DNA of 64,000 bases, taken from contig NW_026889794.1 in the NCBI RefSeq assembly GCF_033153115.1, positions 1,674,001-1,738,000 on the forward strand. Direction: 5' to 3'. The notes beneath the pieces are model-generated. The model had not been told where the DNA came from. It searched no databases and saw only the letters and a program-made list of their open reading frames with translations. The stretch's first letter is position 1. Every line of letters begins with the position of its first letter. The DNA comes from Saccostrea echinata (lineage: Eukaryota). Position numbers and translations under genes: made by a program. Shown here piece after piece: positions 13,441-45,745 of this stretch.

Positions 13441-15904
13441 TTACGCATTGATAGGTTTTAGCAAACTAGATAACTTAACCATTATCAAATCATTATTTTT
13501 ACGTTCTGTAGACCACCTTAAATACTCAATACACTACCATACATGTATAATTTTTTATATCGTTTGGGAGCCTCTCTAATGGTATATTGTCTTTGATTAT
13601 GACAACAATGGAACTCTGACGCTGGTTGTGGAAGGCGTGAGTAATTGCCATCTGGACGGCGTATGAGGCCCAACCACTCTCCAAAAAACATTTTGTGATC
13701 ACGAACAGCACTTTTCTACTTTCATTTATACATTTAACTTTCTCTTTTGCTTCCCAGTCTCCTGGAGTTGAATCTTTATCTTTAAGCTACACTTTCATGT
13801 TCAAACTTTCTAGTTTTGGATACAAAGTATGAAAAATCCACAGTGAGTCTTGTTGAACATAAGACACAAACACATCATAAGTATTGTTATTTTCTTTGTG
13901 TTTTTTTTAATGTACACCCTTCCATCTGATTTAAGTCTCAGTTTGACATATTCTACGTGTACATGGTATTTTCGTAAAGCAGCCATAATTAGAATTAGAG
14001 ACAAAGTAAACAAAATTAACACCACATAGAAAATAAGCCATTACTTTGTTTGGCTTTCTTCATTAAATTTTTTCTAGATCTTCTCGTCATTAAATAAGTG
14101 GTTGATAGGCGTTCGATTCTTTGCACATAACGTTTTATTGAGATCAGAAAACAGATGGTTGTGACTTCTCATCCACTGCAAAGACTGAATATGTGAACAG
14201 GTACAGGAAATCGGATTTCCTTCTAAATAAATTGATATATTACTTAGAGTTTTAATCTTTCTTTGGTCATTTATGGAGAACGCATATATCGAATTGTATC
14301 GAAAATAAAGATTTATCGAATTCTGCATATAATTGAAGGCACCAGGAATGTTAGAAAAATTATTATTGTCAAGGTTTATTTCCATCAAAGATTGCTGTTG
14401 GTCTATGAAAAGTGACGAAGGTAAATCATTCAATCTGTTTCTTGAAAAATCGATTGTGGAAAGATTTTTGAGATTTTTAAATACTAGTATATCTTTAGTA
14501 TTTGATATTTCTATGAAATCTAGGCTCATGCCAATCGCATATATGACCTGAATACCTCGAGAATGCTGAAGTAAATCAGGGTGTATTTTTTCAAATATAT
14601 TACCAGACACGTCAAGCGTTGTTAAAAACGGAAAATCCAATTGATCGACGTAAGCCAGTGAAAAATTTGTTTTTTGGATGTACAATTCTTGCAATCTTTC
14701 CCCAATAATTTTTAACGAGGTTTCCATCTTTTCACAGTATGAAGATGGTTTTCAGAAATATCGACTACCTCCAGATTTTCAGATAGAGTGATATTAACAT
14801 ATGTGAAGACGTTTTATATTGATAGACATTCAATTGTTCCTCTTTATATTGTGGATTATTGCAGCAAAAATTCATTTTTTTTCAAATTGTTCAATGATAA
14901 CAAAGTCATAATTACAGATACGTCTACGACATGGAAATCATTTCCACTCATATCACTCATAAATATTGCAAACAATTCTATAATGTTGTATTGTCGATAT
15001 TTATTTGTACAGAAACAATACCATTCTTTCACAAAGACAAGGCACGAGCACATATATTTACAAGATATTCCGACACCCATTCGTCAAAAAACATAACTCC
15101 TGTTTCAGGATCTTTTTTGTTTTCACAAATGAAAATCTCTTCAATATTGCGATGTTGTAGACATTTTAGAGAGCGGAATGCAGGAGTCATATCACATTTC
15201 CCACCAAAGTTATTAATTACCTCTGGTGAAAGATATGGAAAGGAACAAAACAGATCTTCAGTGACGTCACAAAACACGCGATGTTTAAAATTCATATTAA
15301 GGTGATGAATTTTGGAGCGCCGAAGTCCTAAAAAGGAAGTATTTGTTAAACTTAAATCATTTACAATATGAAACTTTAATTCAGAAAAATTTATTCAGTT
15401 TTCAAATGGTGCTGTAAATGAAAATCCGCTGAAAATGTCGATATGAAGGCTCGACAATGACTAGCAGAAAGTGCTATGTCCGGATAGCCTTCTAACTGGA
15501 AATTATCTTGATCAATTTGAAGGTACTTTAAGTTGTGTACATAGGAGAAATTTTCACTTCTGTTTTGTTTTTATCAAGCTCACAACTTGAAAAATCTAGA
15601 CTGCATATTCCAGAAAGTCTATGGAAGGCCTTATTTTCTATTCTTGTAATTTTATTATGATTCAGGATTCTGGATGACACCCCTGATAAAGCAGCAAGAT
15701 TTTTAAAAGTCTTTTCTGTTAAAATAGAAAATCTATTAAATGATAAATCTAAAGTCACATTGCAGTTTCGTAACTTTTGTGATATTTTTTCAAGTAGTCT
15801 GTTTGTATTGAGGCCACTACAGTTCCATAGAATTCCAAGATTTCCACATTCGTCTGTGTAAGGCGCTGTTGGACAGGGGTATGAAATAAAAGCCAGACTA
15901 CAAA
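13441..15904 (-). pseudogene. Toll-like receptor paralog B, pseudogene (LRR-TM-TIR)
   Basis: Full-length colinear homology to the intact TLR, broken into ORF fragments (15528-16004, 15029-15295, 14856-15080, 14074-14727, 13810-14025, 13526-13711) by several frameshifts and stops. TIR motif ESGWASYAVQM..LERLPNDIKN retained; homologous stop at 13441-13443. Confidence 0.9.
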
Positions 15905-16293
15905 CTGCAAAAAAGAATTGTTCAAAATACAAATGTATCATAAAGCATTCTTTTTTTACTCTTAAGTAGATAGTGAAAATTTGCAATGAAAATAAAAAAT
16001 ACAAACGAATTCTTCATTTCTTTTTAATCTCTGTATTTTTATTAACAAAGCAAGAAGAACACAACATACATGTAGTGTTCATAGTCTGTGTTCTAAAATT
16101 CCGCATACTCGAATACTTGATTACACGCAACAGCGAATATGAAGTGAAGAACGTTTTTATTTGAGAAATAAATAATAAGTTTAAAATATTCTGGGAACTG
16201 GACTTCGTTGGTCACAAGATCAAATCCTGTGAAACCAGAAGGGCTTATTAGTAGATTTACGCAATTGATTATATGGATTTATCGCAAAATCGT

Positions 16294-24546: not shown

Positions 24547-26922
24547 TGTTGGAATTGAGTTTGTTACAAATGACGTCGTCAAACGCGTTTGCGGCGCACG
24601 GGGATGTAAAAAAATCGTTTTAAATATGGCTTGTCAGCTTCAGAGACAATTAGTAGCGAAGTTGTTTATAAATGACAGAAGAGAATCATGAACTGTTTTC
24701 AAAATAGACAGACCTCAAATAAGTAGGGTACTGTTTGTTAAATTCAGACGGTATGGAACGTTATTGGTCACGATCGACGTCAAACCTTGTGTATTGTCTG
24801 CTTCCTACAGTACAAGGTAAGGCAACCTTTCGAGGACTGAAATTAAATTACGGTCAGAAATAATGTGGTATTCGTGGGATTTGAACCCAAAAAAGAAAAT
24901 CCTGAATATTATTGAGATTAATACGCTAACCACTGCGCTTAACATGCAACTCTTGAAGATTAATGACATTAAAATCATTTTTGAGATTGATCCTTGACGA
25001 AATGGACTGCAAGAGTTTTTAGGAAAGATGCGAATGTTGTCTCATAAAAGTGTATTTTTAAGGTGCAGTGGATCCTTGCTCCATGTTTTTGTTAACTAAT
25101 AATGTACATTTTTACGCAAACTATGAGGATAAGCTTTCAATTAAATGGAGTGAAGACCCACTCATATCGAAAAATTGTGTTATAGTATGAGAAAATTTTT
25201 TGCCCTATTTAGTGTGTGTGTTATTTTAATAGCAAATAATTTCATTATTGGTGAGATTTATAAGTTGTGGTGATTTTACATACAGTATACCAGTACTTTA
25301 ATATTAGATGAAAATTTAAAGAAAATTTAAAGAAAATTTTGATGTAATTGAGATTTAATTCATTCATATTTGACGAACAAGGTATTTCGCTTGCCTTGTT
25401 CGCTCATCTTCTTTATCTCTGGGTCTATTCTCTATTTTCAAAAATACTTACCACACAGATATAGCCTGATACAAATGATCTTATTGGGTTAACTAAAAGC
25501 ATTTTTGTTGTAATTTTCTTCCACTTTTATGATTCATTTATTTAATTTTTATTTACTGTTATATGCCTGTATACGCTTTTGATACAGACAATATGTTAGT
25601 TTCTTAGATGAACTTTTAATAATTTAGATAATTTAAAATACTTTTTGTAACCTTGTTGAAAATCCATAATTAAAAATTGTTTTGTTTGATCTGAAAAATG
25701 AGCATTACCACAAGTGTTTATAATTTTTCCAACTTGACATCTTTCTTCCCGTCCCTAGTATCGATGGTGTTCGGCCATTATTGTTATCAGATATATATGG
25801 TCAGATCTTAGACTGGTGTTTCTTTGAATTTGTTATGATTACTCACACTCTGTCCTTTAATTAATCAAATTAACTTCAATGAGCTTTCCCCTTACTTGAC
25901 TACCGTCTTTAAACTTGTTTCATTGGTTCATTTAAGAAAACCTTGGATATTTCACCACTGCATGTAATAAAAAATATCGAGTTAATAAAACTATGCAAAG
26001 TCATGAATGCATTTGTATTTTAGGAATATTTATTTTTAAATCACATTGTTCCAATTTCTTTTTGACTCACGTTGTATTAAAAAAATGATAAAATAAATTA
26101 AAAAAATTCAGAGTCTTCATTAATTCTTCATTACTTGCTACAATTCCTTTTATATAGTAATACAACATAAGCTTTTTTTTCTAATTTCCACGCAAAACTT
26201 CTCTTGAGTTACTTTTATTTAGAAGTATTACAAATGTATAAATATAATTATACCTAAATTAATGTCAACTGGAATTTTTATATATGAGATCCTTATTAGA
26301 TCTAATATATGTTAACATATCTTTATGTCCTTCCTGAATACAATTGTATATACAATATACAACCATTTATATACATGTAGTCAGATAATATAATTTTTAT
26401 AACCAACATAAACTAGGGTATGACCACTTAATCATTATTGACAGCACTGATGAAGAATTAGAACATCTGAAATCGAAAACGTCAGATTATAAGTATATGT
26501 AAACTTTATGTTTATCTTGGACATGTTTGCAAAATACTTTAAGAATCTGAGTATTCAAACACTTAAACATTAAAACTATAACGCGTAAATTGTCGGCATC
26601 ATACCAATTACGGTTTGGTCATATACAAAAATATACAGATTCGCAGAATTTGTTTTCTATAAGTAAAGAGTACAAAATAAATAAAGAGACACATGGGAAA
26701 AATAACAGAAGATTAACAAAAGAGCAACGCTTCTGTCATTAGAAGTTCTCAAATATAATTGCACAGAAGATATATTTTGTATGGCACAGTTCATGTCTAA
26801 TAATTTTCATTTGTTAACAAACTCTTTCAAAATATATAAAATGATTAAAATATTTTATAATATATGTACATCTTTTATTTTTTAATTCTACAACTAAATA
26901 CTTCTATATACCGTCTTGGTAT

Positions 26923-29842
26923 TTAAGCATCTACTGGTTTTAGCAAATTTGATAACTTCTGTTTTATTAGGCCATCATTATCATCTTCTGTAGACCATCT
27001 TAAATACTCAATACACCACCATATATTTTTGATATCGTTTGGGAGCCTCTCTAATGGTATATTGTCTTTGATGACGACAACAATGGAACTCTGACGTTGG
27101 TTGTGAAAGGCGTGAGTAACCGTCATCTGGACGGCGTATGAGGCCCAACCACTCTCCAGAAAACATTCAGTGATCACAAACAGCACTTTTCTACTTTCAT
27201 TTATACAATTAACTATCTCCTCTGCCTCCCAATCTCCTGGAATCGAATCTCTGTCCTTAAGCCACGCCTTAGTATTTAAGCTTTCCAATTTTGGGTACAG
27301 ATAACGAATAATCCAGGCATAGTCCTCCTCACCATATGACACAAAAACGTCATAGATATAATTACTTTTTCTGTTTTCTGGACTCACATCTTTGCATCTA
27401 TTTTTTAGTCTTAATATGACGTATTCCACATGTACCCGGTATTTCCGCACCGTAAAGGATATAAAAAGTATAGATAAAGTCAACACGATTAATACCACAG
27501 AGAAATTGAGCCAGGTTTCTGTTTGACATTTTAGTTGAAATTTTCTCCAGATTTGTTCATTATAAAGTAAGTGAGCGATTAAATTTCTACTTCCTGCACA
27601 TGAGATTCTACTTAAGTCAGCAAAGAGATGCTTGTTATTTTTCATCCAGAGTAAAGACTTAAAACTAGAACAAGTACAAGAAATCGGATTCCCTTCCAAG
27701 TAAAGTGATATATTATTCAGCGTTTCAAAAATATTTTGATCTTTTTTAGTAAATTCCGATATCAAATTGTTTCGTAAAGAGATATTTTTCAAATTTTGCA
27801 AATACCTTAATGAGTCCGGAATATTAAAAAATCGGTTGTGGTCAAGACATATTTCTGTCAAAGATTCTTTCTGGTCTATGAATAAAGTAGGTGGAAGAAA
27901 ACGCAAATCGTTTTCTGAAAAATCTAGTATGGAGAGTTTTTTCATATTCCTGAATATATTTTCAGAATTTAATACTGTTGAAAACGTGAACGTGAAGTTA
28001 ACAGCTTTGACAGATAAACTTTGAATACCTAAGGAAGACTGGAATAAATCAGTGTGCACATTAACAAATTTATTACCAGATAAGTCAAGAATCTTTAAAG
28101 ACGGAAAATCAAATTGGTCGACGTACGCCATAGGAAAATTAGTGTCTTGGATGTACAATGCTTGCAAACTTTCACCAACAATTTTAAAACGAGGTATTTT
28201 TTCTTTAATGTTGTGCAACCAATTGTTCGAGAAATCAAGTACTTCGAGTTTCTCTGGTAAAGTTAGAATGATATCTGAAGTATCCTGATATTGGTATTGT
28301 ATTATATCAGCAAAGCTGTTCTTTACACAATACGGATCATTGCAGCAATAATTCAAATATTTCAATTTAGGTGCTAAGATCCAAGAAACAACCACTGAAA
28401 CATCTACGACATGCAAATCGTTTTTGCTTAAATCTAATTCTTGCAAACAGTTCCATAACGTTGTGTTATGAATATTCTTTGTTATAGATGCAATGCTGTT
28501 TTCAATCATAAATAATTTTAGAACACAGATATTAACAGCATATTCAAGTAACCTTTCATTTAGAACTATCACATTTGTCTCAATCTTTTTCTTATTTTCA
28601 TAAAGTGTAATGTTATCAATATTGCGATGCTGTAGACATTTTAAAGAGCGTAATGCCGGAGTTACGTCACATTTCCCCCCGAAATTAATGAAAACATCTG
28701 TGAGGTTGGGAAAGGAGCAAAACAGATCCTCAGTGACATCACAATACACGTGATTTGCAAACGTCAGATTTAGATGTTGGATTTTAGAGCTTTTGAGTCC
28801 TAAAAAGGACGTATTTGATAAACTAAAATCACTAAGAACATTAAACTTTAACTCAGACAAACTTGTTAGGTTTTCAAATGGTGTTGTAAATTCAAAATTT
28901 TTAAAAACGTCTTTTTCCAGGCTACACAACGACTGAAGTGCAGAAAGTGCAACATCCGGGTACATGTGTTCACTTTCGAAATTATTATGATCAATTTTAA
29001 GGTACTTGATTGGTAGCTGTAAGAAGGCGTCTACTTCTATGCTATTGTTATCAAGATGACAATATGAAATGTCCAAACTACACATGTTTGTGAGTGCTTG
29101 AAAGGTATTGCTTCCAATCGTTGTTATGTTATTGTGATTGAGAATTATGGATGTCACAACTGACATATTTGCAAGATTTTCAAAGGTACTGTTGTTAAGA
29201 ATAGAAAATCTATTAAAGGATAAATCCAAGATGACATTGCGGCCCAGTAATTCCTTTGGTATTTTCTGTGGCAGTCTGTGTATTTCAAATCCACTACAGT
29301 TCCATAAAACTCCTATATTTCCACATTGATCTGTATAAGGTGTTGTTTGACACGCTTCTGACATTATGACCAAGCTACTGTCTGCAAAGGAAGTAAAAAA
29401 TTCTTTGTTATCGACGCAATCATTCTGCTTAAATATCATCCATGTATTCTTTGGATAAATGCCCATAATTATAGTACCTCTTTAAGCATCATCATATTTC
29501 CATTTGGTTGTTCAAATGAACAACATGTCATTTCTGTCAATGAACCCTAAAACCATAGTAATTACATGTACCTATTGGTAGTCATAAATTGATAATTTAT
29601 AAAGAAGATATTAGTATTATTAATTATATTTAAAGATTCGTCAGTATACAATTGTACTCACATATAAAATAGCTTAATATATGTCGTCAGTATATAATTG
29701 TATTCACATATGAAATAGCTTAATATATGTCGTCAGTATACAATTGTACTCACATATAAAATAGCTTAATACATGTCGTCAGTATACAATTGTACTCACA
29801 TATAAAATAGCTTAATATATGTCGTGGTTTCATCTCCGTCAT
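26923..29842 (-). CDS. Toll-like receptor paralog C, intact (signal peptide, LRRs, LRRCT, TM, TIR), about 833 aa; exons 29842-29800 and 29381-26923
   Basis: 847-codon ORF with LRRs, NPISCTC LRRCT, TM (WLNFSVVLIVLTLSILFISFTV) and TIR boxes YDVFVSY / DRDSIPG. The ORF-track N-terminus is not a signal peptide. Splicing a 43-nt exon (ATG 29842, donor T|GTGAGT) to acceptor TTCCTTTGCAG| in phase 1 gives MTEMKPRHILSYFIYSSLVIMSEA-C, a good signal peptide. Confidence 0.93.
29638..29824. repeat. 46-bp minisatellite x4 spanning the TLR-C exon-1 splice donor
   Basis: Unit TCGTCAGTATACAATTGTACTCACATATAAAATAGCTTAATATATG. Confidence 0.95.
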
Positions 29843-31389
29843 GATTTAAAATCCACACTTCCAATGAACTGGTCTTCAAAAAAGTATTGATTAGCTAAAC
29901 ACGAACAAGTCAGACTTTCTTCTAAATATTCTGCTCATAAGGCAAAAAAATATGAGCAAATGATACTTATTGTGAGTGCACAGTCATAATAATCCATACA
30001 CTTTCGGTATGAATCGAGTAAACTGCTGAATAAAAAAATAATTCAAATTATCTCAAAAAAGAGAGTGAATTAATATTTGTGGTCCAATTTAACAAAAATA
30101 TATGACAGTTAAAGCGGAAGTGATTTTATTACAAACTTTGAGCAAACATATTTTAAAAGAGATTGTCAATATCTACCTGTGCCAATATTTAATAATTATA
30201 TTTACATAAAACGTTCAACAAATGCTTCGACAAGGTAGTCGCTTTTTATTTGAACATAGAAATAATTCATAAACTTTCATTCAGGTGAGAATAAATGTCA
30301 GACTGAAAGCAGGGTGGCCTTTAGAGTTTATTCCTTAGGAACACACTCTCAGACTGACCTGGTGCACTACAAGCTATTTGCATTTAAAGTACTGATTAAA
30401 TACCGTATAGAATGACGTTCCATAAATGTTGCTTCCTCGGAGATGCTTAAGCTCGTCAAAAAATTCCAAGGTTCATTTAAGTCCGTAGAATTGTGTAACT
30501 TGCTAGTGTGCCAGTATTTGCCCGATACGTATAGCTTCCGCTTGTTATTCCAGTCTTTTAATTATTCATGCAAAATAAATTTGCACAAACATCAACTAAG
30601 TAAACGTTCCTGGTAGAATATAATGTTCCATTTAAAGATTACAAAAATCTTGTCATCAGAATAATTTGCGTAATATAAAAAGAAATTGAAAGAAAAGATA
30701 TGAACTTTCTGCTTGCCTTAAATTAAGGTTTTCAAAGATAAAAATTGCTAATTCAGACAACTTTTAGTGGAAGAAATTCAGTTCCAGCCTTTGAAAAAAT
30801 AAAAAAAAAGTCAAATACATCAGTAAGTATTAATCGGGATTAACTAAATGTTGCTTTTGCAAGAATTAAGACGTTTCTTCCTTTATATTGCTTGCGTATG
30901 TCAGTTTTGAAAAACTTCATACCAGTAACGCCCCTTAGTTCACTTGTTGGATTGAAGTCGGGTTTATGTATTAGCAGTTGCAGGATAAGATGAATTAAGG
31001 AACTAACTGAAGAACTTATCAAAGAAAGTATTTCCCTTAATGTTGAACTCACATATAAAGTTTCTGACAGTAGGTTCCTGGTAACTATTCAGCTGTCAGA
31101 TGCATGTTGATTCTGTGTTCTGTTTTACTTGGGTGAAAACCATGAAATACATCGTGATATTGTACCCAAGGATGAAATTGTTGAGCAGTTTTTATCATGA
31201 TAACTGACAGCATAAATCAGTTCAGTTCTTGGCAAGCATAATATAAAATTATATTTTAAGATTGTTCCTTGTAAATCATGCGTCGCGTCCCTGTCTACTA
31301 ACATGGTGTCGGAAATCGGCGAGGATATGTCAAAAATAAGAGAGATCAGAAGAACAAAACATAAGCCAAAACTTATAAAATGCATGAAA

Positions 31390-31560
31390 ATCTTAACTGA
31401 ACAAGGATATCAACAGTCTAGTTTGATGTCATCATTTTGCAAGTTTTTTGGTCGATACAATGACATTGTCAGCAAATACAACCTATCACTGGGTCAAATG
31501 CTGACTGACGTTTTTCATACTTATTGTTAGGCCATTATTTACACTAATTTACATTAGTTT
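31390..31560 (+). mobile_element. Penelope-like retroelement 3' fragment
   Basis: QGYQQSSLMSSFCKFFGRYNDIVSKYNLSLGQMLTDVFHTYC*; homologous to the inverted fragment at 32040-32630. Confidence 0.6.
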
Positions 31561-32712: not shown

Positions 32713-33066
32713 TCCATTGCAGGCCATTTTGCAAACCTACAACATGTAATGTATTAAAGTTATTCTCAATGACGATAAGTAGTAAACATTTAGAGGTACC
32801 CGTCCGTTAATTTGTTTTGTTATTTGAAGCTCTTTTAAATGGAAATTTAAAGTCCTCAAACTGCGATATACATGTATATCTATAAAGTGCAAATGTGCTG
32901 CCATTTTTGAACTGATAAAATAACCACGGTAAGATATCAGAGTAACTTTTTTTAAGGAAATATTTAATGCCGTACAGTGTATAATTTATTTTCTTTTTGT
33001 ACTCAGTTAATATTCCTTTTAAAAAGTTCTTATAGTAAAATAACAAATTACATATTTTGAAGCACT

Positions 33067-35837
33067 ATGGCGACATCCCATGATCCGTTGATCAGATCAC
33101 AGGATATAAAAAGATGTCAATTTTGCCCTGGAAAAGACAGGAAATCTGCAGCTGAAACTGTTTGTAGCTCCTGTCAAGTAAACCTCTGTAAGGACTGTGT
33201 AGGTCAACATGTCATATCTGATCCAAAAGTGAAACATGATGTTGTCACTTTTGAATTTAAAAAATCTGAAATCATACCACCCCTGTGTAGCCAACATGAA
33301 GAATTTAAATGTGACATATCTTGTCTACAATGCAATTCTCCTGTTTGTCTAAAATGCCTCACTTCTGGATCACATGAAAATCACGACGTTCAACAAATTT
33401 CTGAAATCTACAAATCTAGACGAAACAGGATTATAAAAGATAATAAAGAGCTTGTAAATGACATAGCACCTGTGTATGAATTAATCATATCTGATATAGA
33501 TACAGTGTTAACAAATGTTGCCCATCAACATAAAGAAAGACATCAAACCATTATAACCTTTGGTGAAAATGCCACAAGCTTATTGACAGTGTTATTGAAA
33601 GGTATTTGAATGAATCAAATGCAATTCAGAGAAAGGATACGGCCTCTCTGTTGGCTTTAAAAGTAGATTTTCAGATGATACAATCATTAATTCAGTCAAC
33701 TGTCAGTGAAAACAAATCCATCCTAGATTCCAGTGAGTCTTCCAAACTAATTCATTATACTTCAAGAAATGAAGATTTTAGATACGTCCCCTCCAGTTTT
33801 GAACTAACAGTACCACAACTAAATCCCATGGATTTTACAGAAGAAGAACTATGTCTTATGATCGGCGTCATTCCAAATACAATTAAATCAAACATTCCAG
33901 CAAGTGTTACTCTACCCATTCAAAGTTCTATTGAACCCTACAAACAATTTATTGACAAACCTATAGTGATGGAATCTGTAGAAACTGGTTATGGGAAAAT
34001 TAATGGAATAAACTGCATTCCATACACAGATGAATTTTATGTCAGTGGTAACAGTGAAATCATCCTACGAATGAACACAGGGGGAGAAATATTAGATGAG
34101 ATTATCACAACGTCAAGAGGAATGCCATATGATACTGGAGTCACCCCAGAGGGTTGTTTGGTTTACACTGAGAGTCTGTCAAATCTACACTTATAAATTA
34201 ATAAATTTTGCAAATAAACTCCGAAACGGATGCATCAGAGTTCTTACTTACTCCTCTAACAATACACTAGATACAAGCTGATGTCCGTAAACTATATTTA
34301 AATTTCACTTGCATAGTAAATATCGTACATTAAATTAAAAGTCTACTTTTATTTTCTATAAACAGCCATGAAATAGCAAAAACCTGAGTACGGTGGCGTT
34401 TCCGGTTGGCGGATCTAAGTTACTGGCAATTTTTAATGAAATTGACAACAAGCAATCATTTATTTATTTCATAAAACGTCATCACTGAATTATTCAATCA
34501 AAACTTGATTTAAATGATATAAAAGAAATAAGTTTTGATAACCGATTAAAAAGGGAAATGTGCAAATTATTTTCGTCATTCACCGATCTTAATATTGACG
34601 GAAGCTTCTAGAACATCATATAGCATCGAGCCCGATGTTAAAAAGAAAAACGAGGCGATCATTTAAAAAAAAAAAAAGCTTTTGTATGAATGGTCATTGA
34701 AATAATGGTAAATCATTGATAACACTATAAGTTTTGAATATATTTATATATCGAAAGACTATTACATGTATGTCGTAGGTTTTTCTATAATAAATTTATT
34801 AGAATATTAATAAAATTTGTATTTATTCCTTATACTGAGAGCATCGTGGCAACGAACCCGAAGTACAATTTGTACTTCGGAATAAACCAGCTTACATGAA
34901 AGACAATTAAAGCTGTGTAAAATATTGTGCTTTAATCAATACATTTCAGTTTTTTTCTGAATAAAGTCATTTGTATCAAATACTCAGCCTAAAAGCTAAT
35001 TTTTACACAGACCCTGTACTTGGGTCTTGCATTATAAATATGTATGTACCTTATTGATATGTAAAAAAAAAGTAAAGTACATTTTTACATATCAGTAAGG
35101 TACATACATATTCATAAACCAAGACCCAAGTACCTGTGAATTTTTAACCCCCCCCCCCCCCCGAAAAAAATCAATTTATCAGTAAAATGTGCATATTCGC
35201 TGCTTTTATCCTTTACGGAAATGAAATAAGAGCATCTGAAGTACAATATCCATAACATAGTATAACAGGTTTCACAATAAAGGTCAATTAATGAAATTGT
35301 TATATTTCAAGTTTTTACAGAAAAGGGGGGGGGGGGGGGTGGTGGAGACGTACATCTACTTCATGCGGAATTTTGAACAAAGTATTTCTTCCTCCTATAA
35401 GCCTGTAGGCTGTCAGTAGAAACTACAATATATTTTCTGTCGTTAGTGATATAAATTCAATTCCCCGCGCTTGCGCGCGGGATTTCATCTAGTGGTATAA
35501 ATATAGAAAAGAGTGGCAGGACAAGACGCCTATTCCCGCCTGAGGACTGGATACCGGTGGTCATATGTTGTACCCCAACAGATGAATTACTTGTTGCTGT
35601 GAAATCAATTGAAAGTAACATCACACAGAGTAAAATACTCCGTAATCCGAGATTCCTCTGACTCTAACCCCTGCTTTTATATTTTGACATGTCATCGATG
35701 GGGACGGACAGTTCCTTTTATACATTTCAAATTGTGAATTAGAAATTCCATTTGATCTCAGTACAGATGAAGATGACAATCTGTTTGTTGCTGAACGTCT
35801 GAGTGGCAAAGTGAAGGAAATAAAACTGTTTGAATGA
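33067..35837 (+). pseudogene. TRIM-like protein (two B-boxes, coiled coil, NHL-like beta-propeller), disrupted
   Basis: B-box1 CQFC..CSSCQVNLCKDCVGQH..H; B-box2 CSQH..CLQCNSPVCLKC..HENH. One-base frameshift near 33565-33570, Helitron insertion 34184-35492, apparent deletion near 35645. C-terminus HVIDGDGQFLLYI..PFDLSTDEDDNLFVAE..GKVKEIK..* ends 35837. Confidence 0.85.
34184..35492 (+). mobile_element. Non-autonomous Helitron
   Basis: 5' TC (A|TCTACACTTATAAA), 3' GC-rich hairpin CCCGCGC-TTGC-GCGCGGG then CTAG|T, no TSD. Removing it restores the TRIM frame (LS-N-GINIEK). Carries an internal ~120-bp hairpin at 35016-35133. Confidence 0.88.
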
Positions 35838-37436
35838 TAAGATTAGATCTAAATATTTAAAAATAATACATACAACACGAAATAAATTCAAGAAGTTTCA
35901 TGTTCAAAATATATACATGTACCATGAAAGCACCACTTATCCTACTTTCATATTTTTGAAAAAAAAAAGATGCATGAACTTTATTTTGTCCAATGGCATA
36001 ACTTTTTACCTTTGAATAAGAAAGACATCCCAATTTTCTCCTTTACAAAATCGAACAATTACCGATGACATTAATCTACAACTGAATTTTGAATATTGTG
36101 CTAATATTAGTTAATTTGCTGTACATGTATGTGTTGCCTGAGCCACCTTCTCCTTTGCCAGATATTTAAATAAATTTTTAAAACAACAATACCATTAACA
36201 TCTACTTGCTTAAGTTATATATATACTTATTAATTAAACCTTTCCTATTTGGAGAATTTTTCTACAGTTTTATCCTTATATTTATATACATATATATATA
36301 TATAAACATATTGAATATAAATTTAAAAGCATAAAAAAATGGCATCTGATCCTACTTCTAATGTTTTTAGAGGTCCCTGTTTGCTCTGCTCCAAAATTTG
36401 TATTGTTTCATTGGACTTTTGAGATTGATTAATGTTTTATCTTTATATATCATTACAAGCCTGTGAACCTGTCTATGAACCTACCTGGCTTCAATTGGGG
36501 GTATAATTATTATATTTACTTTGCTATATCTATTACATCTGTTTGATAGAATCTTTTTCACGCATTATTAAGGTCATGGTCACAGGATCAAATAAATTAC
36601 ACATAATTGTCCATTTTCATTTCATCAATACATTTTAAAATAAGCAAATGAATCATTGAAGATACCCTTAAATTGATAAAAGGAAAGATATATCACCATT
36701 TTCAGTTGATATATATTTATAATTTTGAGACTATGTAATGCAGGGAAAGTTTTAATGAATGTATGTCCATGACATGACTTCTGGTGAATTATACATGTAT
36801 GACTGATAGCCTTGCACCAAAGATATTGTGGCCGGTCATTCATAATACAAAGGTTTCTTATAACCTTGATTCTTGAGACATTTCAGGATTTTGAATAAAA
36901 ATCACTTAGTCCAATAAAAAAAGGTTACAAAGGCACTATATATTAGCACTGCTGCTAATGTGTATATTTTGAAAGTTTTTTTCATTTAATTCTTATTTCG
37001 TTTTCACTTCCTGACAAATGAGTATGTTGGTAAATAAACATTTTGTAATAGAGTCAGTACAAACGTTAAGGCTTGTCTTGTGTCTTGAAACTTAAGTCTT
37101 AAGCATAATGTACACCCTTAACACAAACTTTTTCTCAAGCTATACAAGTCTGACTAAAACCCTGTTTTCTTGAGTTCACCTAGTTTTGTATACCTTAACT
37201 ACTTGTACTGAAGATAATTTGTGTTACATTTGGTAAAATTTCTCACTGTGGTTTTTGAAAATAATTTTAAAATGCAAAAATTTTTACAGAAAAAAAAAAC
37301 AAACAATTTCCAGAATTCAATTGACTGTCATTACAAAAATTCTTGCAATTCTTGCAAATACATCCATTATTTTCATAGACTCTTCTACAGACACAATTTA
37401 ATGTCAAATTTAGAAACACTATAAATACACACTGAA

Positions 37437-40400
37437 TTAGCTGTGTTCTGGTGACTTTGGTTTGATGAACCTCCCCTGGACAAATATCCTAGGGACACAC
37501 AAGTCCTCCTTTTTATTGACTGTGTCTCTTTGTATGTACTCACACTGACTCAATGTCATATCAAATCCAACACTCTTCACAAGATCTAACAATTTGTCTG
37601 AAAAAAAAATTATTTTCTATCATTTCAAACATAACTTTCTTAAAAACATCCTTGCCCCCTGACAAAAATTGAATAAACTTGAATTTGTACTGCATGGGCA
37701 TACATAAGATTAATGATAGCACTGTAAAATTCATTGGATTCTTCATAGACACAGCTACATTCCTATGTAAACTTAGAACCTTTAATAGACTCAAGCCTAG
37801 TCTGAGACCTTGACTGGAACAATTGAATTCTACATTAGATGGGGTGAATGCATAATAATTTGACTTTTTGATGCCCTCCTGCTGTTAATGACGACATTTT
37901 TTTGGTGGTACATTTGTATGAAAAACTTTGGCCCCCTTCTGAAACCCTACAGGAAAACATGGATCTAGACTATGACTACTTGTTCTTTTGAATGCTTGCA
38001 TATCAATTCAATTAATTTTGGTACTTCTGTCCTTAAAGTTACATAGTGAGTCGATATCATATGTTTCTTTTAAGATAATTGTATCGTAAAGCTAAAGATT
38101 TATGAGAAATATAAATAAAGTGAAGTTTTGAGATCTCAACTGCACGGTAAAAGCAAGAAAAGACTGCAAAATGTAAATGCCAGAAAAAGAAAAGTTGTTC
38201 TAAGGCGTGGTTGTTATCGTCAATGTCTACAATGTCAAGGTCATGTGTCTTATTCTTAGCGTGAAACTTGTAAACAACATTGAATTAGAGCAATCAAAAG
38301 TAAGGAATAAGTTCTGATCATCTTTTTTGAAGATCATATCAAAATCCTCGGTCATCCGACATTTATATCTATGGAATTGACACCATGGTAACTTCTTCAA
38401 CTTTTCTGTGCATGCGTACCTTAAAGAGGAAGAAGTGAAGCAATATTTTCGTGTTGGGGCAAACTAAAATTATTTTTACTTATATTTTCCTCCTTAAAAG
38501 TAGATTTTTCAGATTCTGAATCCTGTAATTTTCTGAAACCTGATACTTTTAAGAATTGAATAAAATTTGCATGTGTCTTGCAAAAATTCTACTTTTGTCA
38601 ATTTTCCCGTTCGTCCGTCACAGTGTCTCTTTAAAAAGAGGATTAAAAATCATCCTATCCTATTTTACAGGTGGTGTTTACCATTCATTATTTATCTCCT
38701 GCAGAGTTTTGGAAGAAGTCAACAAGAAACCCATGAGTCACAATGCTCACCTTAATGATCTTGGCCCTGCTGTTTTTCATCAGATTTTAAAGTTTTTTTC
38801 TACTCATTATTTCCATGAAAAAGTTTAACCCCAATTCCAAGAAGTCTCCTTGACATGGGGAATCTTGCACTATGTGAGGGTGCTTGCTTATTAATATTAC
38901 TTATTGTGACACTGCTATTCTTGAAAAAGAGATTTTTACATTTATATTCCCAAGAAAAACTTTGATCCCCTTTTGTGGCACCACACTACTCCCAAGGCAG
39001 AAATACAGAATTTACACATCTCAGCAAGCTTTCACCTAAATTTCATCTCTTCTCATCTGCCGGTTCTTTAGATGAAGATTTTTAAATGACCCAATCCTAT
39101 TTTTGCCTTTTCTTGCTGATCTTCCACCAAAGGATGCTTTGTGCCAACTTCAGTTTAAACTGACCCAGTTGTTCTTGAGAAGAAATTAAAAATGTGTTAA
39201 GTTTACATACATACAGACAGCTAGACAGACAGATGCCAGAGATGGCTCCGGTGAGCTAAAAATGTGAAAAGCTAGAATAAGTAAAATTGATTTTACAGCT
39301 CTCAGGCCAATTTTCCTAAAAACAGATGTGGGTGGAAGGGGTTTTTTTTTTTACCTTTTTATGGGCAGTAATTACATATGTAGATGTGGGAGGCAGTTTT
39401 TATTCCAGAATTTTTTATGAAATAACAATGAAAATCCTTTCCCTATAAGTGTACTGGGGTCCTACTGTAAATATATTCAACATCTCACAAAATTACCAAG
39501 TATATGCATATTTTTCATTTTATTGAACAGAGTGTCCATGTTGAATGACTGTCCATGTTTATACAAAATGGATACCAGAAACAAAAATGAAGTGCAAAAC
39601 TATGGATAATGAGTCCGGAATTTTTTTCCCTGGATGGGTCTCCCCAATACCAAATTTTTATTTTATTGAAAATGTGATAAAAATTGTAATGCTGCTACCT
39701 TAAAACTGATGTGCAAGGGCTCAAAAAAACCATAATTTCAATTTTATATAGCCTTAACAGACAGGCAAAGACACATAGTCAACAAATTTTTTATCAGAAA
39801 AGCTTATTTGAATCTCTCTCTCATTTTCACTATATACCGGTATTTCCTTTGAACTCATCATGATTTTTACCTGTAGAGAAATAGTAAGCCCTGGTTCCAT
39901 CTTGTCTGACATAGAAGTTTTCCGACAGCTTGTGACCTGACGCGAACCTCAGCATGGCATAATCATAGAGACCATAGTCCCTGAATAACAGATTGCCTCC
40001 AGGCTTCATCACCTGAAAATGAATATTTCTTAATAAATCAAAATCCTCTATTTCACTGATTTTTTTTTCTAAATGCCTTGGATCCATCTTTTTTAACTGT
40101 TATGAATATCTGTCACCTTTACAATATATCAAACACTTTTGAACTTATAGTTCCCTGCCTTTTGGGATATTAAAAGTAAAACTAAAGACATAAATAACAG
40201 ATTTGCAATGCTGCCATTAACATGTTTTTTTCACTAAAATTTATGTGAAGGCCCCGACACTACCCTAAAAATTACTCTTTATTAGTTGTGTATTTCTGTC
40301 TAAAGTTAAATCAATTTAACTTTATCATATATAAGTGTACAGTTGCAAAGTTTTAAACTGATTAATTCATAAATTGATTATTAAAAGCAAACTAGGCAAA

Positions 40401-40679: not shown

Positions 40680-42726
40680 TTCCTTATGCCAAATGTTAAC
40701 TTAGGGTAATGGAACACAATGAGCTGTTCCTAGCACCTCGGGAAATATATTCTGAATACTGATATATTTCTAATAAGGTATTAAATTAAAATAACTGTAT
40801 ATTATTCCATTTTATAAAAGTTATATTAGAAATTGAGGCTCATCTCAGCAATTTATTGGTGTATTATATTCATAGATATTTATAACCTTCATGATATTGG
40901 ATAAAGCTGCCTCCATCTTGTCTGGATGGATAGCTGACAGGACGAAGATCATAGACACCACATCTACCGAGTCTTGAGGAATGGTCACACTCAGATCATC
41001 CTTTGTGATGTCACACTGGAAGGCAGAGCATCGAGTCGAGTCATACTCAGGATTGTCCTACATGAAATGTAATCCCACACATTTTAATCTTATATTTCAG
41101 AACTAAACACATGCATGTTTAAATGTACAGTTTTTTTGTTTTGTTTTGTTTTTTGTTTTTTTTTTTTTTTGGGGGGGGGGGTGTTTTTTGTTTTTTTGTT
41201 TTTGTTTTTTGGTTTTCTTTTAAATGAAACAATGTTAACATGAGCATTTTGCAAACTTTCACCAAAGATACACAAAAGAAAGATAACTCTTGCAGTTTTT
41301 CAGAAGTTTCTTTTTCACAGAGAGTTATCTCTCTTTGTTCATAAACCTCAGACTTTCAAAAGAGAATATTGTACAAACATCAAATCATATCAAATTTATG
41401 TCTATGAAATAAAAATGAAAGTTATTAAATAAGCATACATCAAGAGTAAAATTTCTACTTACATACCTGGAAAAACTTCATTAAATAGAATAAGTGATGA
41501 CAGAGAGAATAGGGATAAATAGTAGATCTATTTACTCTTATTTTGTATTTCAAAGTTGTTTACGTACAATATATAAATAGTACATGTTTGGGAGGGTAAA
41601 CAGTTGAAATTTACACTCCGAGAAAAAACTATAACTATCATCTTACACGTCAGCTTTATATATATGCATCTGACATTATCATTATTTGTTACCCAAGTGT
41701 GTTGCTAATGCTGAGGGAAACATTGAAAATTGGTAATGCTTCTAAACCATACGCATTCCCCATCTTAATTTGTAAATAAGAAATATAAATACTATCAACA
41801 TAACATTTATAGTGTAGTAGATATAAATTTTTATATTTACTAATTAAGCTGGGGAATGCCTATGTTCTAAACCAATCAGATTTCAGTATTTAACAAGAAA
41901 GTATCATAATTAAAAATACCTTCACAAACTGTACAGCTCTAGGAGAGAAATCACAGGCATAGAAGAAGAGAGATTTGTCCTCTTGTAGCAGTGGCCAGAT
42001 AAAGTTCCCCACCCCACAGCCTACCTCCAGTATTATCCTCTGACCTGTCTGTAAAAAGCAATACTGAGAATTATTGGATAAACAAAAACTCATTTCTCTG
42101 GATAGCATATTATTTGCAAGTATAAATATCATGGGTATCTGATTCTGCTGAATACACTAAAATCTGCATGATTATGCTATTGCACAAATACCATGATACT
42201 TTTTAAAATTTTGTGAATAAAAGAATTGAACATTGATATCAATAGTAATTTCTATGGAAAATTTCATATGTTACTCAACTCTGATACATGTAGCTATGAA
42301 TATTTTTGCCTTATATTTGCCTTATACCTCTGTTTCCAAGGCGCATAGATCATCAAACTCCCGCTTTGTCCAATGGCGGTCCTTAAAGAACTTTGTGGTG
42401 TTTCTCTTATAAAATAGATCCCAGTTTTTCTGAGCTTCTTTCTCAAGCTTGTTCTGTTTAAAATCGGACACACAGGTTACATCTTTTTTCAGTTTAGCAA
42501 TTTCCTCCGGTGTGAGAGTTCTAGCAGAGTGACCAAAATTCTCCTCGCAGTCATTGCTGGCTAACATCTCAGATTTGTCAACTTCTACTTTTGAGTCTGT
42601 GACTGTCATTTTCTTTAAATGAACATCTACAGAATCTGCTAATGAGTCGTCTACACTTTGCTCTGAATTATGAGATGAATTTTCATTTAACTCATTTCTT
42701 TCTCCTAAATTACACTTGTTATCCAT
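37437..42726 (-). CDS. METTL6: tRNA N3-methylcytidine (m3C) methyltransferase METTL6, about 333 aa; exons 42726-42328, 42048-41920, 41057-40887, 40012-39871, 37597-37437
   Basis: [36 protein letters not shown] (SAM motif I), [62 protein letters not shown]. All introns GT-AG with consistent phases. The ORF-track start at 42744 is a TTG; first ATG is 42726. Confidence 0.95.
38720..39262 (+). mobile_element. Helentron-associated (HINE-like) element in METTL6 intron
   Basis: 5' AACAAGAAACCCATGAGTCACAATGCTCACC; 3' (ACAG)n microsatellite then GGTGAGCTAAAAA (sub-TIR GCTCACC/GGTGAGC). Confidence 0.7.
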
Positions 42727-42801: not shown

Positions 42802-43299
42802 TTAATGCCCAACATGAAGTAAAGGGACACAACTGCATCCAGTTACTTTGTTAAATTCCTTCAAGATCAATGATTCCTTTGCAAACATTTGCTCATACTG
42901 TTCCTTTGTTTCATGATCATAGCCAATCAGATGAGAGATACCATGGGTTACCATGACAGGGAGAACATTCTGTATCTTCTGGTTGTTATGACGACACTGT
43001 CGGTTAATGTACGGAATTCCCAGGTAGATATCCCCCAAGTCTAACACACCCTGAGTTGGAGCGGGGGGCAATTTTCCTGGTACAAGATCCTCGTAAAAAG
43101 GAAATGCTAAAACGTCTGTTGGTTGTCTTTTTCCTCTGTATTGAGTGTTTATTCTGGTAATCTCCCTGTCGTTTACACAGGTTACAGATAGGTCATAAGA
43201 TTCAACTCCAAACAGCTTACGCAGGAGGTTAATTTGGGATTTCAACAGGTGTGTGTCAAGGGAAACTACTCTTTGCAAATTTTCAAACAGCACAGACAT
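42802..43299 (-). CDS. YBEY: Endoribonuclease YbeY (UPF0054), 165 aa, intronless CDS
   Basis: N-x-x-YR..PTDVLAFP, LGDIYLG and the metal-binding HGISHLIGYDH motif; N-terminus MSVLFENLQR resembles metazoan YBEY. Acceptor TATTGCAG| at 43323 just upstream. Confidence 0.95.
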   Translation of the reverse strand: MSVLFENLQRVVSLDTHLLKSQINLLRKLFGVESYDLSVTCVNDREITRINTQYRGKRQPTDVLAFPFYEDLVPGKLPPAPTQGVLDLGDIYLGIPYINRQCRHNNQKIQNVLPVMVTHGISHLIGYDHETKEQYEQMFAKESLILKEFNKVTGCSCVPLLHVGH

Positions 43300-44009
43300 A
43301 CTCTTTCAAAATTTTTCATCACCTGCAATAGTTTAAATAAAATATGTATACATCTTTTCATTTATTACTATGATTTCAAATGTGAGATCAACATAAAGAA
43401 ATATCCTTTTCTGAAGAACTCTAAAATGGAGATTTACAATGTTTTATGCAGAAGTTATAATAGCTATTATATTCAGCAAAGAATATTCTCAAAGTCTATA
43501 TTCTCTACATAGAGAAACAGGCAATATAATTGATATTAGCTCAGGGGCTCCGAAAATACTGATGGTCAGATAATTTTTACTATTGACTGGCAAAGAGTTT
43601 TCCCACATTTCCCATCAAAATGTTTGGATAATAATCTGGCGATAGGCTTGCCTTACGCTTTTCCTGCTCAGATACACAGCTGGCTCTAGCTGTTACAACC
43701 ATTGTTTACATTATTTGAGGTGTCCTTGTGACATCACAATCACATGCGCTGACCCTCTGGTGAATACAGCTTTAAATTCAGTGAATATGTAATGTTAGTA
43801 CATTTATAAACCATTTATACAGCAAACTCGTGCCTATATTCACCAATATAAGTTCAATAACCCTGTATTTTCACATCCTTCCAATGACCCTACCAAGAGT
43901 TATTTGCTTAATGAGGTTTTCATTGTTAATTGCTAAACTTTTACTAGATTATACTTTTGTCTATAATAATTAATAATTTTAATTTTGTGTGAAAATCGAC
44001 ACATCTTAC

Positions 44010-44849: not shown

Positions 44850-45659
44850 TCACTTAGCCTTTGCTGCTTTCTTTGCCTTCCTTGGGGAGCTGGGCCTTTT
44901 CCTTGCCTTGGATTTGGTTTTCTTAGGCGACTTCCTCGCTGCTTTGGGCTTCTTGGCTGCCTTGGCTTTCTTTGGTGACTTGGCCTTTCTTGCTTTCTTT
45001 ACTTTTTTGGCTGCTGCTTTCTTTGCCTTGGGTTTCTTTGCCTTTGGCTTCTTTGCTTTCTTGGGCTTCTTCGCTGCCGCCTTCTTCTTTGGCTTTTTAG
45101 CTGCCTTCTTCTTCTTGGGCGTTGCTGCAACTTTTCCTACTCTGAAACGTCCGCTTGCACCGTGGGCACTGGATCCTTTAGGCCGAACTAGGGCTCCTGA
45201 CTTAAGACCCTTAGCGAACGCGGCTTTCATTGCTGAAGACAGGTGTGTTGCACTCACCGATTTGTTGTTAGCCAAGATGTATTTTCTGATGGACTGGGCT
45301 GAGGATCCTTTGCGGTCCTTCATGGCAGTAATGGCCGCACACACCATGTTGAGAGTTGTTGGATGGGCCGCTTTCTTGGATGCTGCTCTGGGTTTTGATG
45401 CCTTCTTCTTTGGTGACTTCCTGGCCTTCTTAGCTTTTCTTGGGGATCCACTTCGACTGCGGCTTCTACTTCTGCTTCGGCTGCGACTGCGGCTACGGCT
45501 CCTGGACTTGGTCATCTTGGGGGCAGCTGGCTTTGCTGGTGCTGGAGATTTCTTCGCTACAGCTTTCTTAGGTGCTGCCTTCTTTGGAGATCGACTTCGG
45601 CTTCGGCTCCTAGACCTTGACTTAGACCGGGAACGGGAACGAGATCGGGATTTCGCCAT
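44850..45659 (-). CDS. Sperm-type protamine-like histone H1 (PL-I-like), 269 aa, intronless
   Basis: Two (RS)n blocks, H1/H5 winged-helix domain (HPTTLNMVCAAITAMKDRKGSSAQSIRKYI..GASGRFRV) and K/A/P-rich tail with SPKK motifs; histone stem-loop downstream. Sperm specificity is inferred from family resemblance. Confidence 0.9.
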   Translation of the reverse strand: MAKSRSRSRSRSKSRSRSRSRSRSPKKAAPKKAVAKKSPAPAKPAAPKMTKSRSRSRSRSRSRSRSRSRSGSPRKAKKARKSPKKKASKPRAASKKAAHPTTLNMVCAAITAMKDRKGSSAQSIRKYILANNKSVSATHLSSAMKAAFAKGLKSGALVRPKGSSAHGASGRFRVGKVAATPKKKKAAKKPKKKAAAKKPKKAKKPKAKKPKAKKAAAKKVKKARKAKSPKKAKAAKKPKAARKSPKKTKSKARKRPSSPRKAKKAAKAK

Positions 45660-45695
45660 ATTCTTACGAACTGACTGGTACTCTTGCTGGAACAA

Positions 45696-45745
45696 GAATG
45701 ACGCTCAAAGCTGGTGACGCGCTATTTATTGAGGTGTCACGGACG
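45696..45745 (-). promoter_or_regulatory. Histone-type core promoter of the PL-I-like gene
   Basis: TATA-like AATAAATA (45730-45723), cap motif TCATTC (45701-45696) about 25 nt downstream, GTCCG (H4-box-like) just upstream. Confidence 0.55.

What the first reader, a model, noticed from the sequence alone, without database searches (positions are those of the whole stretch)
29638..29842. TLR-C signal-peptide exon's splice donor is amplified as a 46-bp minisatellite
Seen: each unit contains the last ~25 nt of exon 1 plus |GTGAGT and intron start, giving donors at 29799 (in frame), 29753, 29707 (GTGAAT variant) and 29661. Only the first yields the signal peptide; the second frameshifts and the later ones include an in-frame TGA. 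Inference: competing donors could divert transcripts to NMD, so repeat copy number may tune expression of an immune receptor between individuals.
Basis: partly seen in the sequence, partly recalled or inferred. Interest (0 to 1): 0.7.

Follow-up and report, generated by a model that had tools for sequence, protein, structure and literature searches.

The report
Duplicated splice donors in oyster TLR
A 46-base piece covering the end of a small exon in an oyster immune-receptor gene is repeated four times, giving three spare splice signals that are likely ignored, as in similar human and lancelet genes, so this is probably an ordinary duplication and not an expression switch.

Summary
The array is real: four 46-bp units (29825-29638, minus strand), each 26 exon plus 20 intron bases, with donors at 29799, 29753, 29707 (weakened) and 29661, in a rock-oyster Toll-like receptor gene. 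The nearest paralog has one donor, so the array is a later tandem duplication. Contigs of 2 of 4 runs join 29800 to 29381, but they come from a copy only about 90% alike, whose repeat number is unknown; donor competition is untested. The layout is known (human F7, CBS, LMNB2; amphioxus 'mirages'), the first donor usually prevails, and the intact 833-codon frame argues the allele still works. This scan noted the same layout in other genomes and elsewhere in this one. Side finding: one contig splices the last coding exon of METTL6 onto this exon. Verdict: new member of a known kind, low interest.

The parts
29638..29825 (-). 46-bp tandem array, 4 units plus a 4-base remainder (ACGA, which also opens every unit); each unit = last 26 bases of the exon + first 20 of the intron
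29800..29933 (-). small internal exon: 5' untranslated part, AUG at 29842 (second in-frame AUG 29833), 14 codons + 1 base of the predicted signal peptide; acceptor before 29933 (or 29930)
   Evidence: contig of run X1 covers 29800-29933 and leaves the genome at both ends; paralog exon conserved in phase
29794..29799 (-). donor 1 (authentic), TAT|GTGAGT
   Evidence: joint 29800-29381 in contigs of a related copy
29748..29753 (-). donor copy 2, same 11-mer as donor 1; frameshift with 29381, in frame with 29377 or 29374
29702..29707 (-). donor copy 3, +5 G changed to A (weaker); TGA upstream
29656..29661 (-). donor copy 4, identical to donor 1; TGA upstream
29382..29799 (-). 418-nt GT-AG phase-1 intron, apparently the last intron of the gene
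   Evidence: skips 418, only joint listed in 26500-31500
29374..29381 (-). acceptor cluster: main exon start 29381, further AGs giving starts at 29377 and 29374
   Evidence: all three AGs also in the paralog
26923..29381 (-). large terminal exon: LRR ectodomain, membrane segment, TIR domain, stop; poly(A)-type signals at 26886 and 26879
37433..37597 (-). last coding exon of METTL6 (stop 37439-37437); its end is joined to the small TLR exon in one contig

Best explanation
A 46-base stretch spanning the exon end and splice donor of an oyster Toll-like receptor gene is tandemly repeated four times, likely through replication slippage, and the three extra donors are likely mostly ignored, so the gene probably still makes its normal receptor. 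Shown: the array, the single-donor state of the paralog, the 4-base ACGA repeat at both array ends, the intact frame, and use of the donor-1 junction in a related copy. Inferred: slippage on the ACGA microhomology followed by unequal exchange; choice of the first donor because the exon is internal and is defined from its upstream acceptor to the nearest donor (134 nt against 180, 226 or 272 nt); near-neutrality of the array.
For: Paralog at G000:C45:1626.7 kb has one donor in the same phase and an 830-codon frame; the 27-base exon-end pattern has 5 matches in G000, 4 in the array and 1 in the paralog, control 0; no array at the matching donor of the 3 other cluster members scanned. Joint 29800-29381 in contigs of 2 of 4 runs, the only joint listed. 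The units differ by 4 substitutions in 184 bases; had the allele been silent that long, 5-8 disabling changes would be expected in the 2,499-base frame and none is there (P 0.0004-0.005; 0.11-0.24 at the low bound of the age). dN/dS against the paralog 0.34, TIR part 0.21. Precedents: F7 uses only the first donor whatever the repeat number; LMNB2 (100-bp unit) and PDGF (81-bp unit) likewise (PMC1557585); amphioxus mirages do not disturb splicing (PMC3087553). Similar arrays cover 0.65% of 400,000 sampled bases, so roughly 1 donor in 1,000 would be caught by chance (my arithmetic).
Against: The junction contigs are not from this allele: 24 differences in 177 coding bases and 6 plus a gap in 134 bases of the small exon; their template may have one donor only. 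The X4 contig has just 25 bases on the small-exon side, which fit unit 1 and unit 4 equally. Donors 1, 2 and 4 have the same 11-mer and context. In reporter tests two strong donors 45 nt or more apart splice almost wholly at the downstream one (PMC3413131, passages); the spacing here is 46. CBS and 6-16 use two further donors (PMC1557585 introduction). The public protein model of this locus is a 340-aa piece without the small exon, though the single-donor paralog's model lacks it as well. The age argument assumes the unit changes arose at the neutral rate.
Confidence: 0.68

Rival explanations
1. Leaky array: donor 1 dominates but donor 2 takes a minor, fixed share, as in CBS and 6-16. Most of that share ends at codon 32; a little, through the AG 4 or 7 bases on, gives a receptor with a 13-14 residue longer leader. 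The loss does not scale with copy number.
For: Identical donor context; leak to the next two donors in 2 of the 5 human cases named in PMC1557585; in-frame rescue exists with a hydrophobic 12-mer of mean hydropathy 2.2 against 1.9 for the normal leader.
Against: No contig shows it (weak, contigs drop rare forms and are of another copy). The rescue needs a second minor event at the acceptor.
Confidence: 0.17
2. Silent knock-out: the most downstream donor (29661) wins by the intron-proximal rule, a stop at codon 31 is kept in the mRNA, and this allele is functionally dead or nearly so, like its broken neighbours.
For: Spacing 46 nt meets the 45-nt threshold for intron-proximal use between strong donors (PMC3413131); donor 4 equals donor 1; broken TLR copies lie in the cluster.
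Against: Frame intact despite the array's apparent age; the donor pairs at only 7 of 11 consensus positions with none in the exon, whereas the rule concerns strong donors; natural arrays with longer units (81, 100 bp) use the first donor.
Confidence: 0.07
3. One reading: repeat number varies between oysters, more copies divert more transcripts to unproductive donors and NMD, and this tunes receptor level.
For: The decoy donors are real and two of three are intact; such arrays are length-unstable in F7 and amphioxus.
Against: No polymorphism shown (one locus copy). F7 donor choice was independent of repeat number. Stops sit in the last exon, 42 nt or 88 nt before the last junction, and within 100 nt of the AUG, positions that tend to escape NMD in human cells (PMC12776119); the 2.45-kb tail behind the stop could still trigger junction-independent decay (recalled), and oyster rules are unknown.
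Confidence: 0.06
4. Assembly or read artefact.
For: No independent DNA covering the array was found.
Against: The units differ by specific substitutions (all 4 are transitions) and the array has clean microhomology ends; no N nearby.
Confidence: 0.02

Closest known systems
Human F7 intron-7 37-bp VNTR (PMC1557585; parts 1-4 of 6 read: abstract, introduction, results, start of discussion)
   Same: First unit spans the exon-intron boundary; identical donor copies follow in the intron; internal exon.
   Different: Unit 46 bp with 26 exon bases (F7: 37 bp with 4); 4 units (F7: 5-9, polymorphic); one copy has decayed; donor use by this allele and polymorphism are untested; invertebrate.
Human CBS intron 13, 6-16 intron 2, LMNB2 and PDGF arrays (as described in the introduction of PMC1557585; originals not seen)
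   Same: Donor reiterated by a minisatellite; outcome is first donor only (LMNB2, PDGF) or first plus next two (CBS, 6-16).
   Different: Far fewer units here; the exon carries the start codon and signal peptide, so misuse would give start-proximal stops.
Amphioxus 'mirages' (Adh3, globins BflGb6, BflGb9; PMC3087553, passages read)
   Same: Minisatellite-like tandem duplication of an exon-intron boundary in a marine invertebrate; reported not to disturb splicing; edge and inner units differ.
   Different: Haplotype length variation is shown there (6 against 3 units) and not here; unit sizes differ.
Oyster LRR-TIR Toll-like receptors (Saccostrea cucullata 'TLR6' 79%, Crassostrea 'TLR4/13' about 50%; names as given by the sources)
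   Same: LRR ectodomain, TIR domain, short hydrophobic leader; in this cluster the leader is split by a phase-1 intron.
   Different: Only this cluster member carries the array among the 4 whose small exon was found.

Membership tests
Exon-intron boundary minisatellite (F7-type / mirage) | Head-to-tail tandem array | tested here: met
   TRF period 46, 4.1 copies, 94%
Exon-intron boundary minisatellite (F7-type / mirage) | First unit spans a real exon-intron boundary | tested here: met
   Joint 29800-29381 in related contigs; same phase and place in 3 paralogs
Exon-intron boundary minisatellite (F7-type / mirage) | Donor sequence reiterated in the intron | tested here: met
   3 copies, 2 identical to donor 1
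Exon-intron boundary minisatellite (F7-type / mirage) | Extra donors silent or minor | tested here: inconclusive
   Only donor-1-type joints seen, but in a copy about 90% alike and at depth about 5
VNTR (variable number) | Length polymorphism between haplotypes | not testable with these tools
   One copy in G000; no DNA holder listed
Regulated unproductive splicing (AS-NMD switch) | Alternative donor used at a measurable rate | tested here: inconclusive
   No such contig; data too thin
Regulated unproductive splicing (AS-NMD switch) | Stop more than 50 nt before a downstream junction and away from the start codon | tested here: not met
   Donor 2: stop in last exon; donor 3: 42 nt; donor 4: 88 nt but at codon 31 (human rules)
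Regulated unproductive splicing (AS-NMD switch) | Decoy conserved across related genes | tested here: not met
   Absent from the 3 paralogous donors scanned; orthologous DNA of other species not available
Toll-like receptor | LRR ectodomain and TIR domain in one frame | tested here: met
   Pfam LRR_8 7.7e-16, TIR_2 3.3e-11, TIR 8.3e-11; homologs over 99-100% of length
Toll-like receptor | N-terminal signal peptide | tested here: inconclusive
   No predictor available; best 12-residue hydropathy 1.92, within the 1.74-2.92 of 8 homologs

The most novel reading that the evidence does not exclude
The array varies in length between oysters and, with donors 46 nt apart at the threshold where downstream donors start to win, acts as a heritable dial on an immune receptor: extra units divert transcripts into start-proximal stops, while donor 2 with a shifted acceptor yields a receptor with a longer leader. 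It would be the first donor-repeat array shown to tune an invertebrate immune gene.
Probability: 0.07. Interest if true: 0.55.

Novelty: new member of a known kind. Interest (0 to 1): 0.2.

Why it matters
As best read, it matters little: one more exon-boundary minisatellite in a repeat-rich genome. It has some use as a natural test, outside mammals, of first-donor against intron-proximal choice, because the spacing (46 nt) sits at the published threshold and the paralog supplies a single-donor control. If copy number did tune the receptor, it would be a simple marker for immune variation in farmed rock oysters. The METTL6-to-TLR splice, if common, would change how this receptor's expression is read.

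Tried and rejected
Sequencing runs: no RNA holder on record was listed; 4 runs guessed as RNA (2 samples, 1 study) held 0.06-0.16 of the words. No contig covers 29409-29778; contigs show presence only. Exact scan of metagenome contigs for a 23-base unit motif: 0 matches; uninformative. Structure as a selector of donor 1: the array folds no better than shuffles (z -1.07); the small AU-rich hairpin over the donor is the same in units 1 and 4 and in the paralog and is not significant (z -0.5 to -1.0); rejected. Idea that the junction contigs come from the paralog at C45:1626 kb: rejected, since they share its letter at 9 of 19 listed differences, lack 12 of its 21 differences, and differ from the window's small exon at 6 places against the paralog's 19; nor is there a METTL6 copy near that paralog. 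Public protein models: none holds the small exon of this gene; uninformative. Own first untranslated exon of the gene: homology to the paralog runs from 29800 to 31043 but no exon could be placed. Literature: no paper on this locus in the listings (titles and abstract starts only); PMC10078293 passages gave no donor-in-each-unit case. Original CBS, 6-16, LMNB2 and PDGF papers and all supplements were not seen. Earlier notes near this place: none.

Full report
Observation. On the minus strand, 29825-29638 is a tandem array of period 46 with 4.1 copies, 94% matches and no indels. Each unit holds the last 26 bases of an exon and the first 20 of the intron; units 1 and 4 are identical, unit 2 differs at one base and unit 3 at three, one of them the +5 G of the donor. 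Donor motifs start at 29799, 29753, 29707 and 29661. The four bases ACGA open every unit and close the array, the pattern expected of slippage on a microhomology (inference).

The gene. Downstream lies an open frame from 29481 to 26923 with LRR and TIR domains. Its best relatives are Saccostrea and Crassostrea Toll-like receptors (79% and about 50%), so this is a rock oyster TLR. Joining the AUG at 29842 through donor 1 to 29381 gives 833 codons with a hydrophobic leader like that of 8 homologs (no signal-peptide predictor was run). The family is large: 48 matches in G000, several in a cluster on the same contig, some broken. The nearest paralog (L034) has the same small exon in the same phase, its own AUG, a single donor and an 830-codon frame. 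The exon-end pattern occurs 5 times in G000: 4 in the array, 1 in that paralog. TLR-A and the L035/L040 gene have the matching exon with one donor and no array there. The array is therefore a later event in one gene.

RNA evidence. Four runs guessed to be RNA (2 samples, 1 study) were laid as contigs. In 26500-31500 the only joint listed is 29800 to 29381, a 418-base GT-AG skip, in 2 of 4 runs. This confirms the exon and the donor position, with limits. The X1 contig differs from the window at 24 of 177 coding bases and at 6 plus a gap of 134 small-exon bases; it is not the L034 paralog and is best read as another allele or an orthologue, whose repeat number is unknown. The X4 contig has only 25 bases on the exon side, which fit units 1 and 4 alike. 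No contig covers 29409-29778. Donor competition in this allele is thus untested.

First, the exon is internal: the X1 contig leaves the genome at 29933, behind an AG, and its next 30 letters match 37462-37433 at 28 places (19 letters by search, the rest by eye). The two more distant cluster members also have a pyrimidine-rich AG before the exon. Second, donor 2 frameshifts only with 29381; with the AGs giving starts at 29377 or 29374 the frame stays open (847 and 846 codons). Third, NMD is doubtful. The intron seems to be the last (unbroken frame to 26923, poly(A)-type signals at 26886 and 26879; no other joint). The stop lies 7 nt past the junction for donor 2, 42 nt before it for donor 3 and 88 nt before it for donor 4, always at codon 31-32. 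In human cells stops in the last exon, within 50 nt of the last junction, or near the start tend to escape, though the start-proximal zone was as short as 21-23 codons in some genes (PMC12776119, preprint, passages). A long tail behind the stop could still cause decay (recalled), and oyster rules are not known. Any loss would more safely be called unproductive translation.

How it most likely works. Donors 1, 2 and 4 have the same 11-mer, matching the consensus at 7 of 11 places and at none in the exon (consensus recalled). Two published rules conflict. In human F7, whose 37-bp VNTR has this layout, only the first donor is used and constructs with 1 to 12 units did not change that; LMNB2 and PDGF behave alike, while CBS and 6-16 also use the next two (PMC1557585, parts 1-4 of 6; the latter four cases only as cited there). 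In reporters with two strong donors 45 nt or more apart the downstream one is used almost fully (PMC3413131, passages); the spacing here is 46. The sequence favours the first rule: the units carry 4 substitutions in 184 bases, and a frame silent for that long should have gathered 5-8 disabling changes, yet it has none (P 0.0004-0.005; 0.11-0.24 at the low bound of the age). dN/dS against the paralog is 0.34 (TIR 0.21), which covers the whole time since the gene duplication, not only the array's. I put first-donor dominance with a near-neutral array at 0.68, a minor fixed leak at 0.17, a silent knock-out at 0.07, copy-number tuning at 0.06 and artefact at 0.02.

Chance. In 40 stretches of 10 kb taken at even steps from 7 contigs, arrays of period 20-100, at least 3 copies and 85% matches numbered 11, in 6 of the 40 stretches, covering 2,608 of 400,000 bases. 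The window has three. By my arithmetic about 1 donor in 1,000 would lie in the first unit of such an array, so many cases per genome are expected without selection. The array shows no unusual folding.

Known kind. Besides the human cases, amphioxus 'mirages' are the same thing in an invertebrate, length-variable and reported not to disturb splicing (PMC3087553, passages). Earlier notes of this scan describe the layout in at least 7 genomes, including another gene of this one (AI notes, used as leads only; one led me to the mirage paper, one reports use of the last donor). No paper on this locus appeared in the listings.

Side finding. The upstream exon joined in the X1 contig, 37597-37433, is the last coding exon of METTL6 (E 2.6e-9 to solved METTL6; single copy in G000; further exons at 42.7-39.8 kb). 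The joint lies about 4 bases behind its stop codon and skips 7.5 kb that holds a B-box gene on the other strand. One contig of depth about 5 in one run shows this, in a related copy, so it is a lead: a read-through transcript in which the TLR frame would be second. It does not depend on the array.

Verdict. Real feature, new member of a known kind, most likely inert; the tuning model is unsupported but not excluded. Interest 0.2.

Noticed in passing
window 37433-37597 joined to 29933 (minus strand): One contig (run X1, depth about 5, a copy about 90% alike) splices the last coding exon of METTL6, about 4 bases after its stop, onto the small TLR exon across 7.5 kb: a conjoined METTL6-TLR transcript. 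It is the only contig seen that extends upstream of the TLR exon.
   Followed up: partly
window 29205-29381 against 26985-27888: Contigs differ from the window far more in the N-terminal ectodomain (24 of 177 bases) than in the 3' part (0 of 229, 3 of 194, 4 of 240) or the small exon (6 of 134), which may mean diversifying selection or gene conversion at the receptor's tip.
   Followed up: no
window 33061-34196 and about 35455-35837 (plus strand): B-box (TRIM-like) gene lying head-to-head with the TLR and tail-to-tail with METTL6; its first exon appears split over two overlapping frames near 33567-33609, a possible frameshift.
   Followed up: no
window 42802-43305 and 42322-42726 (minus strand): Intronless YbeY frame whose stop lies about 75 bases upstream of the likely METTL6 start codon on the same strand; very tight spacing that may mean a shared transcript.
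   Followed up: no
window 44850-45704 (minus strand): Linker-histone-fold protein with long RS repeats and a lysine-rich tail, like the protamine-like sperm proteins of bivalves (name recalled); the opposite strand is open for 291 codons as well.
   Followed up: no
window 13444-15914 (minus strand): TLR-B is broken into several frames with stops; further broken copies lie at G000:C45 about 1633.8 kb and 1661 kb.
   Followed up: no
window 10118-10156 (minus strand): The signal-peptide exon of TLR-A lies about 9 kb upstream of its large exon (starts near 1085), a much longer intron than the 418 bases of TLR-C and 1,385 of the L034 paralog.
   Followed up: partly
window 51620-51955 and 53430-53815: Two more minisatellites (41 bp x 8.1; 39 bp x 10); not checked for overlap with exons.
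   Followed up: no
window 31047-31059 (minus strand): A 13-base match to the donor region of the repeat unit, at the point where homology to the paralog ends and two contigs stop matching; possibly chance (E 0.17).
   Followed up: partly
window 61293-62582 (minus strand): 429-codon open frame with no Pfam match.
   Followed up: no
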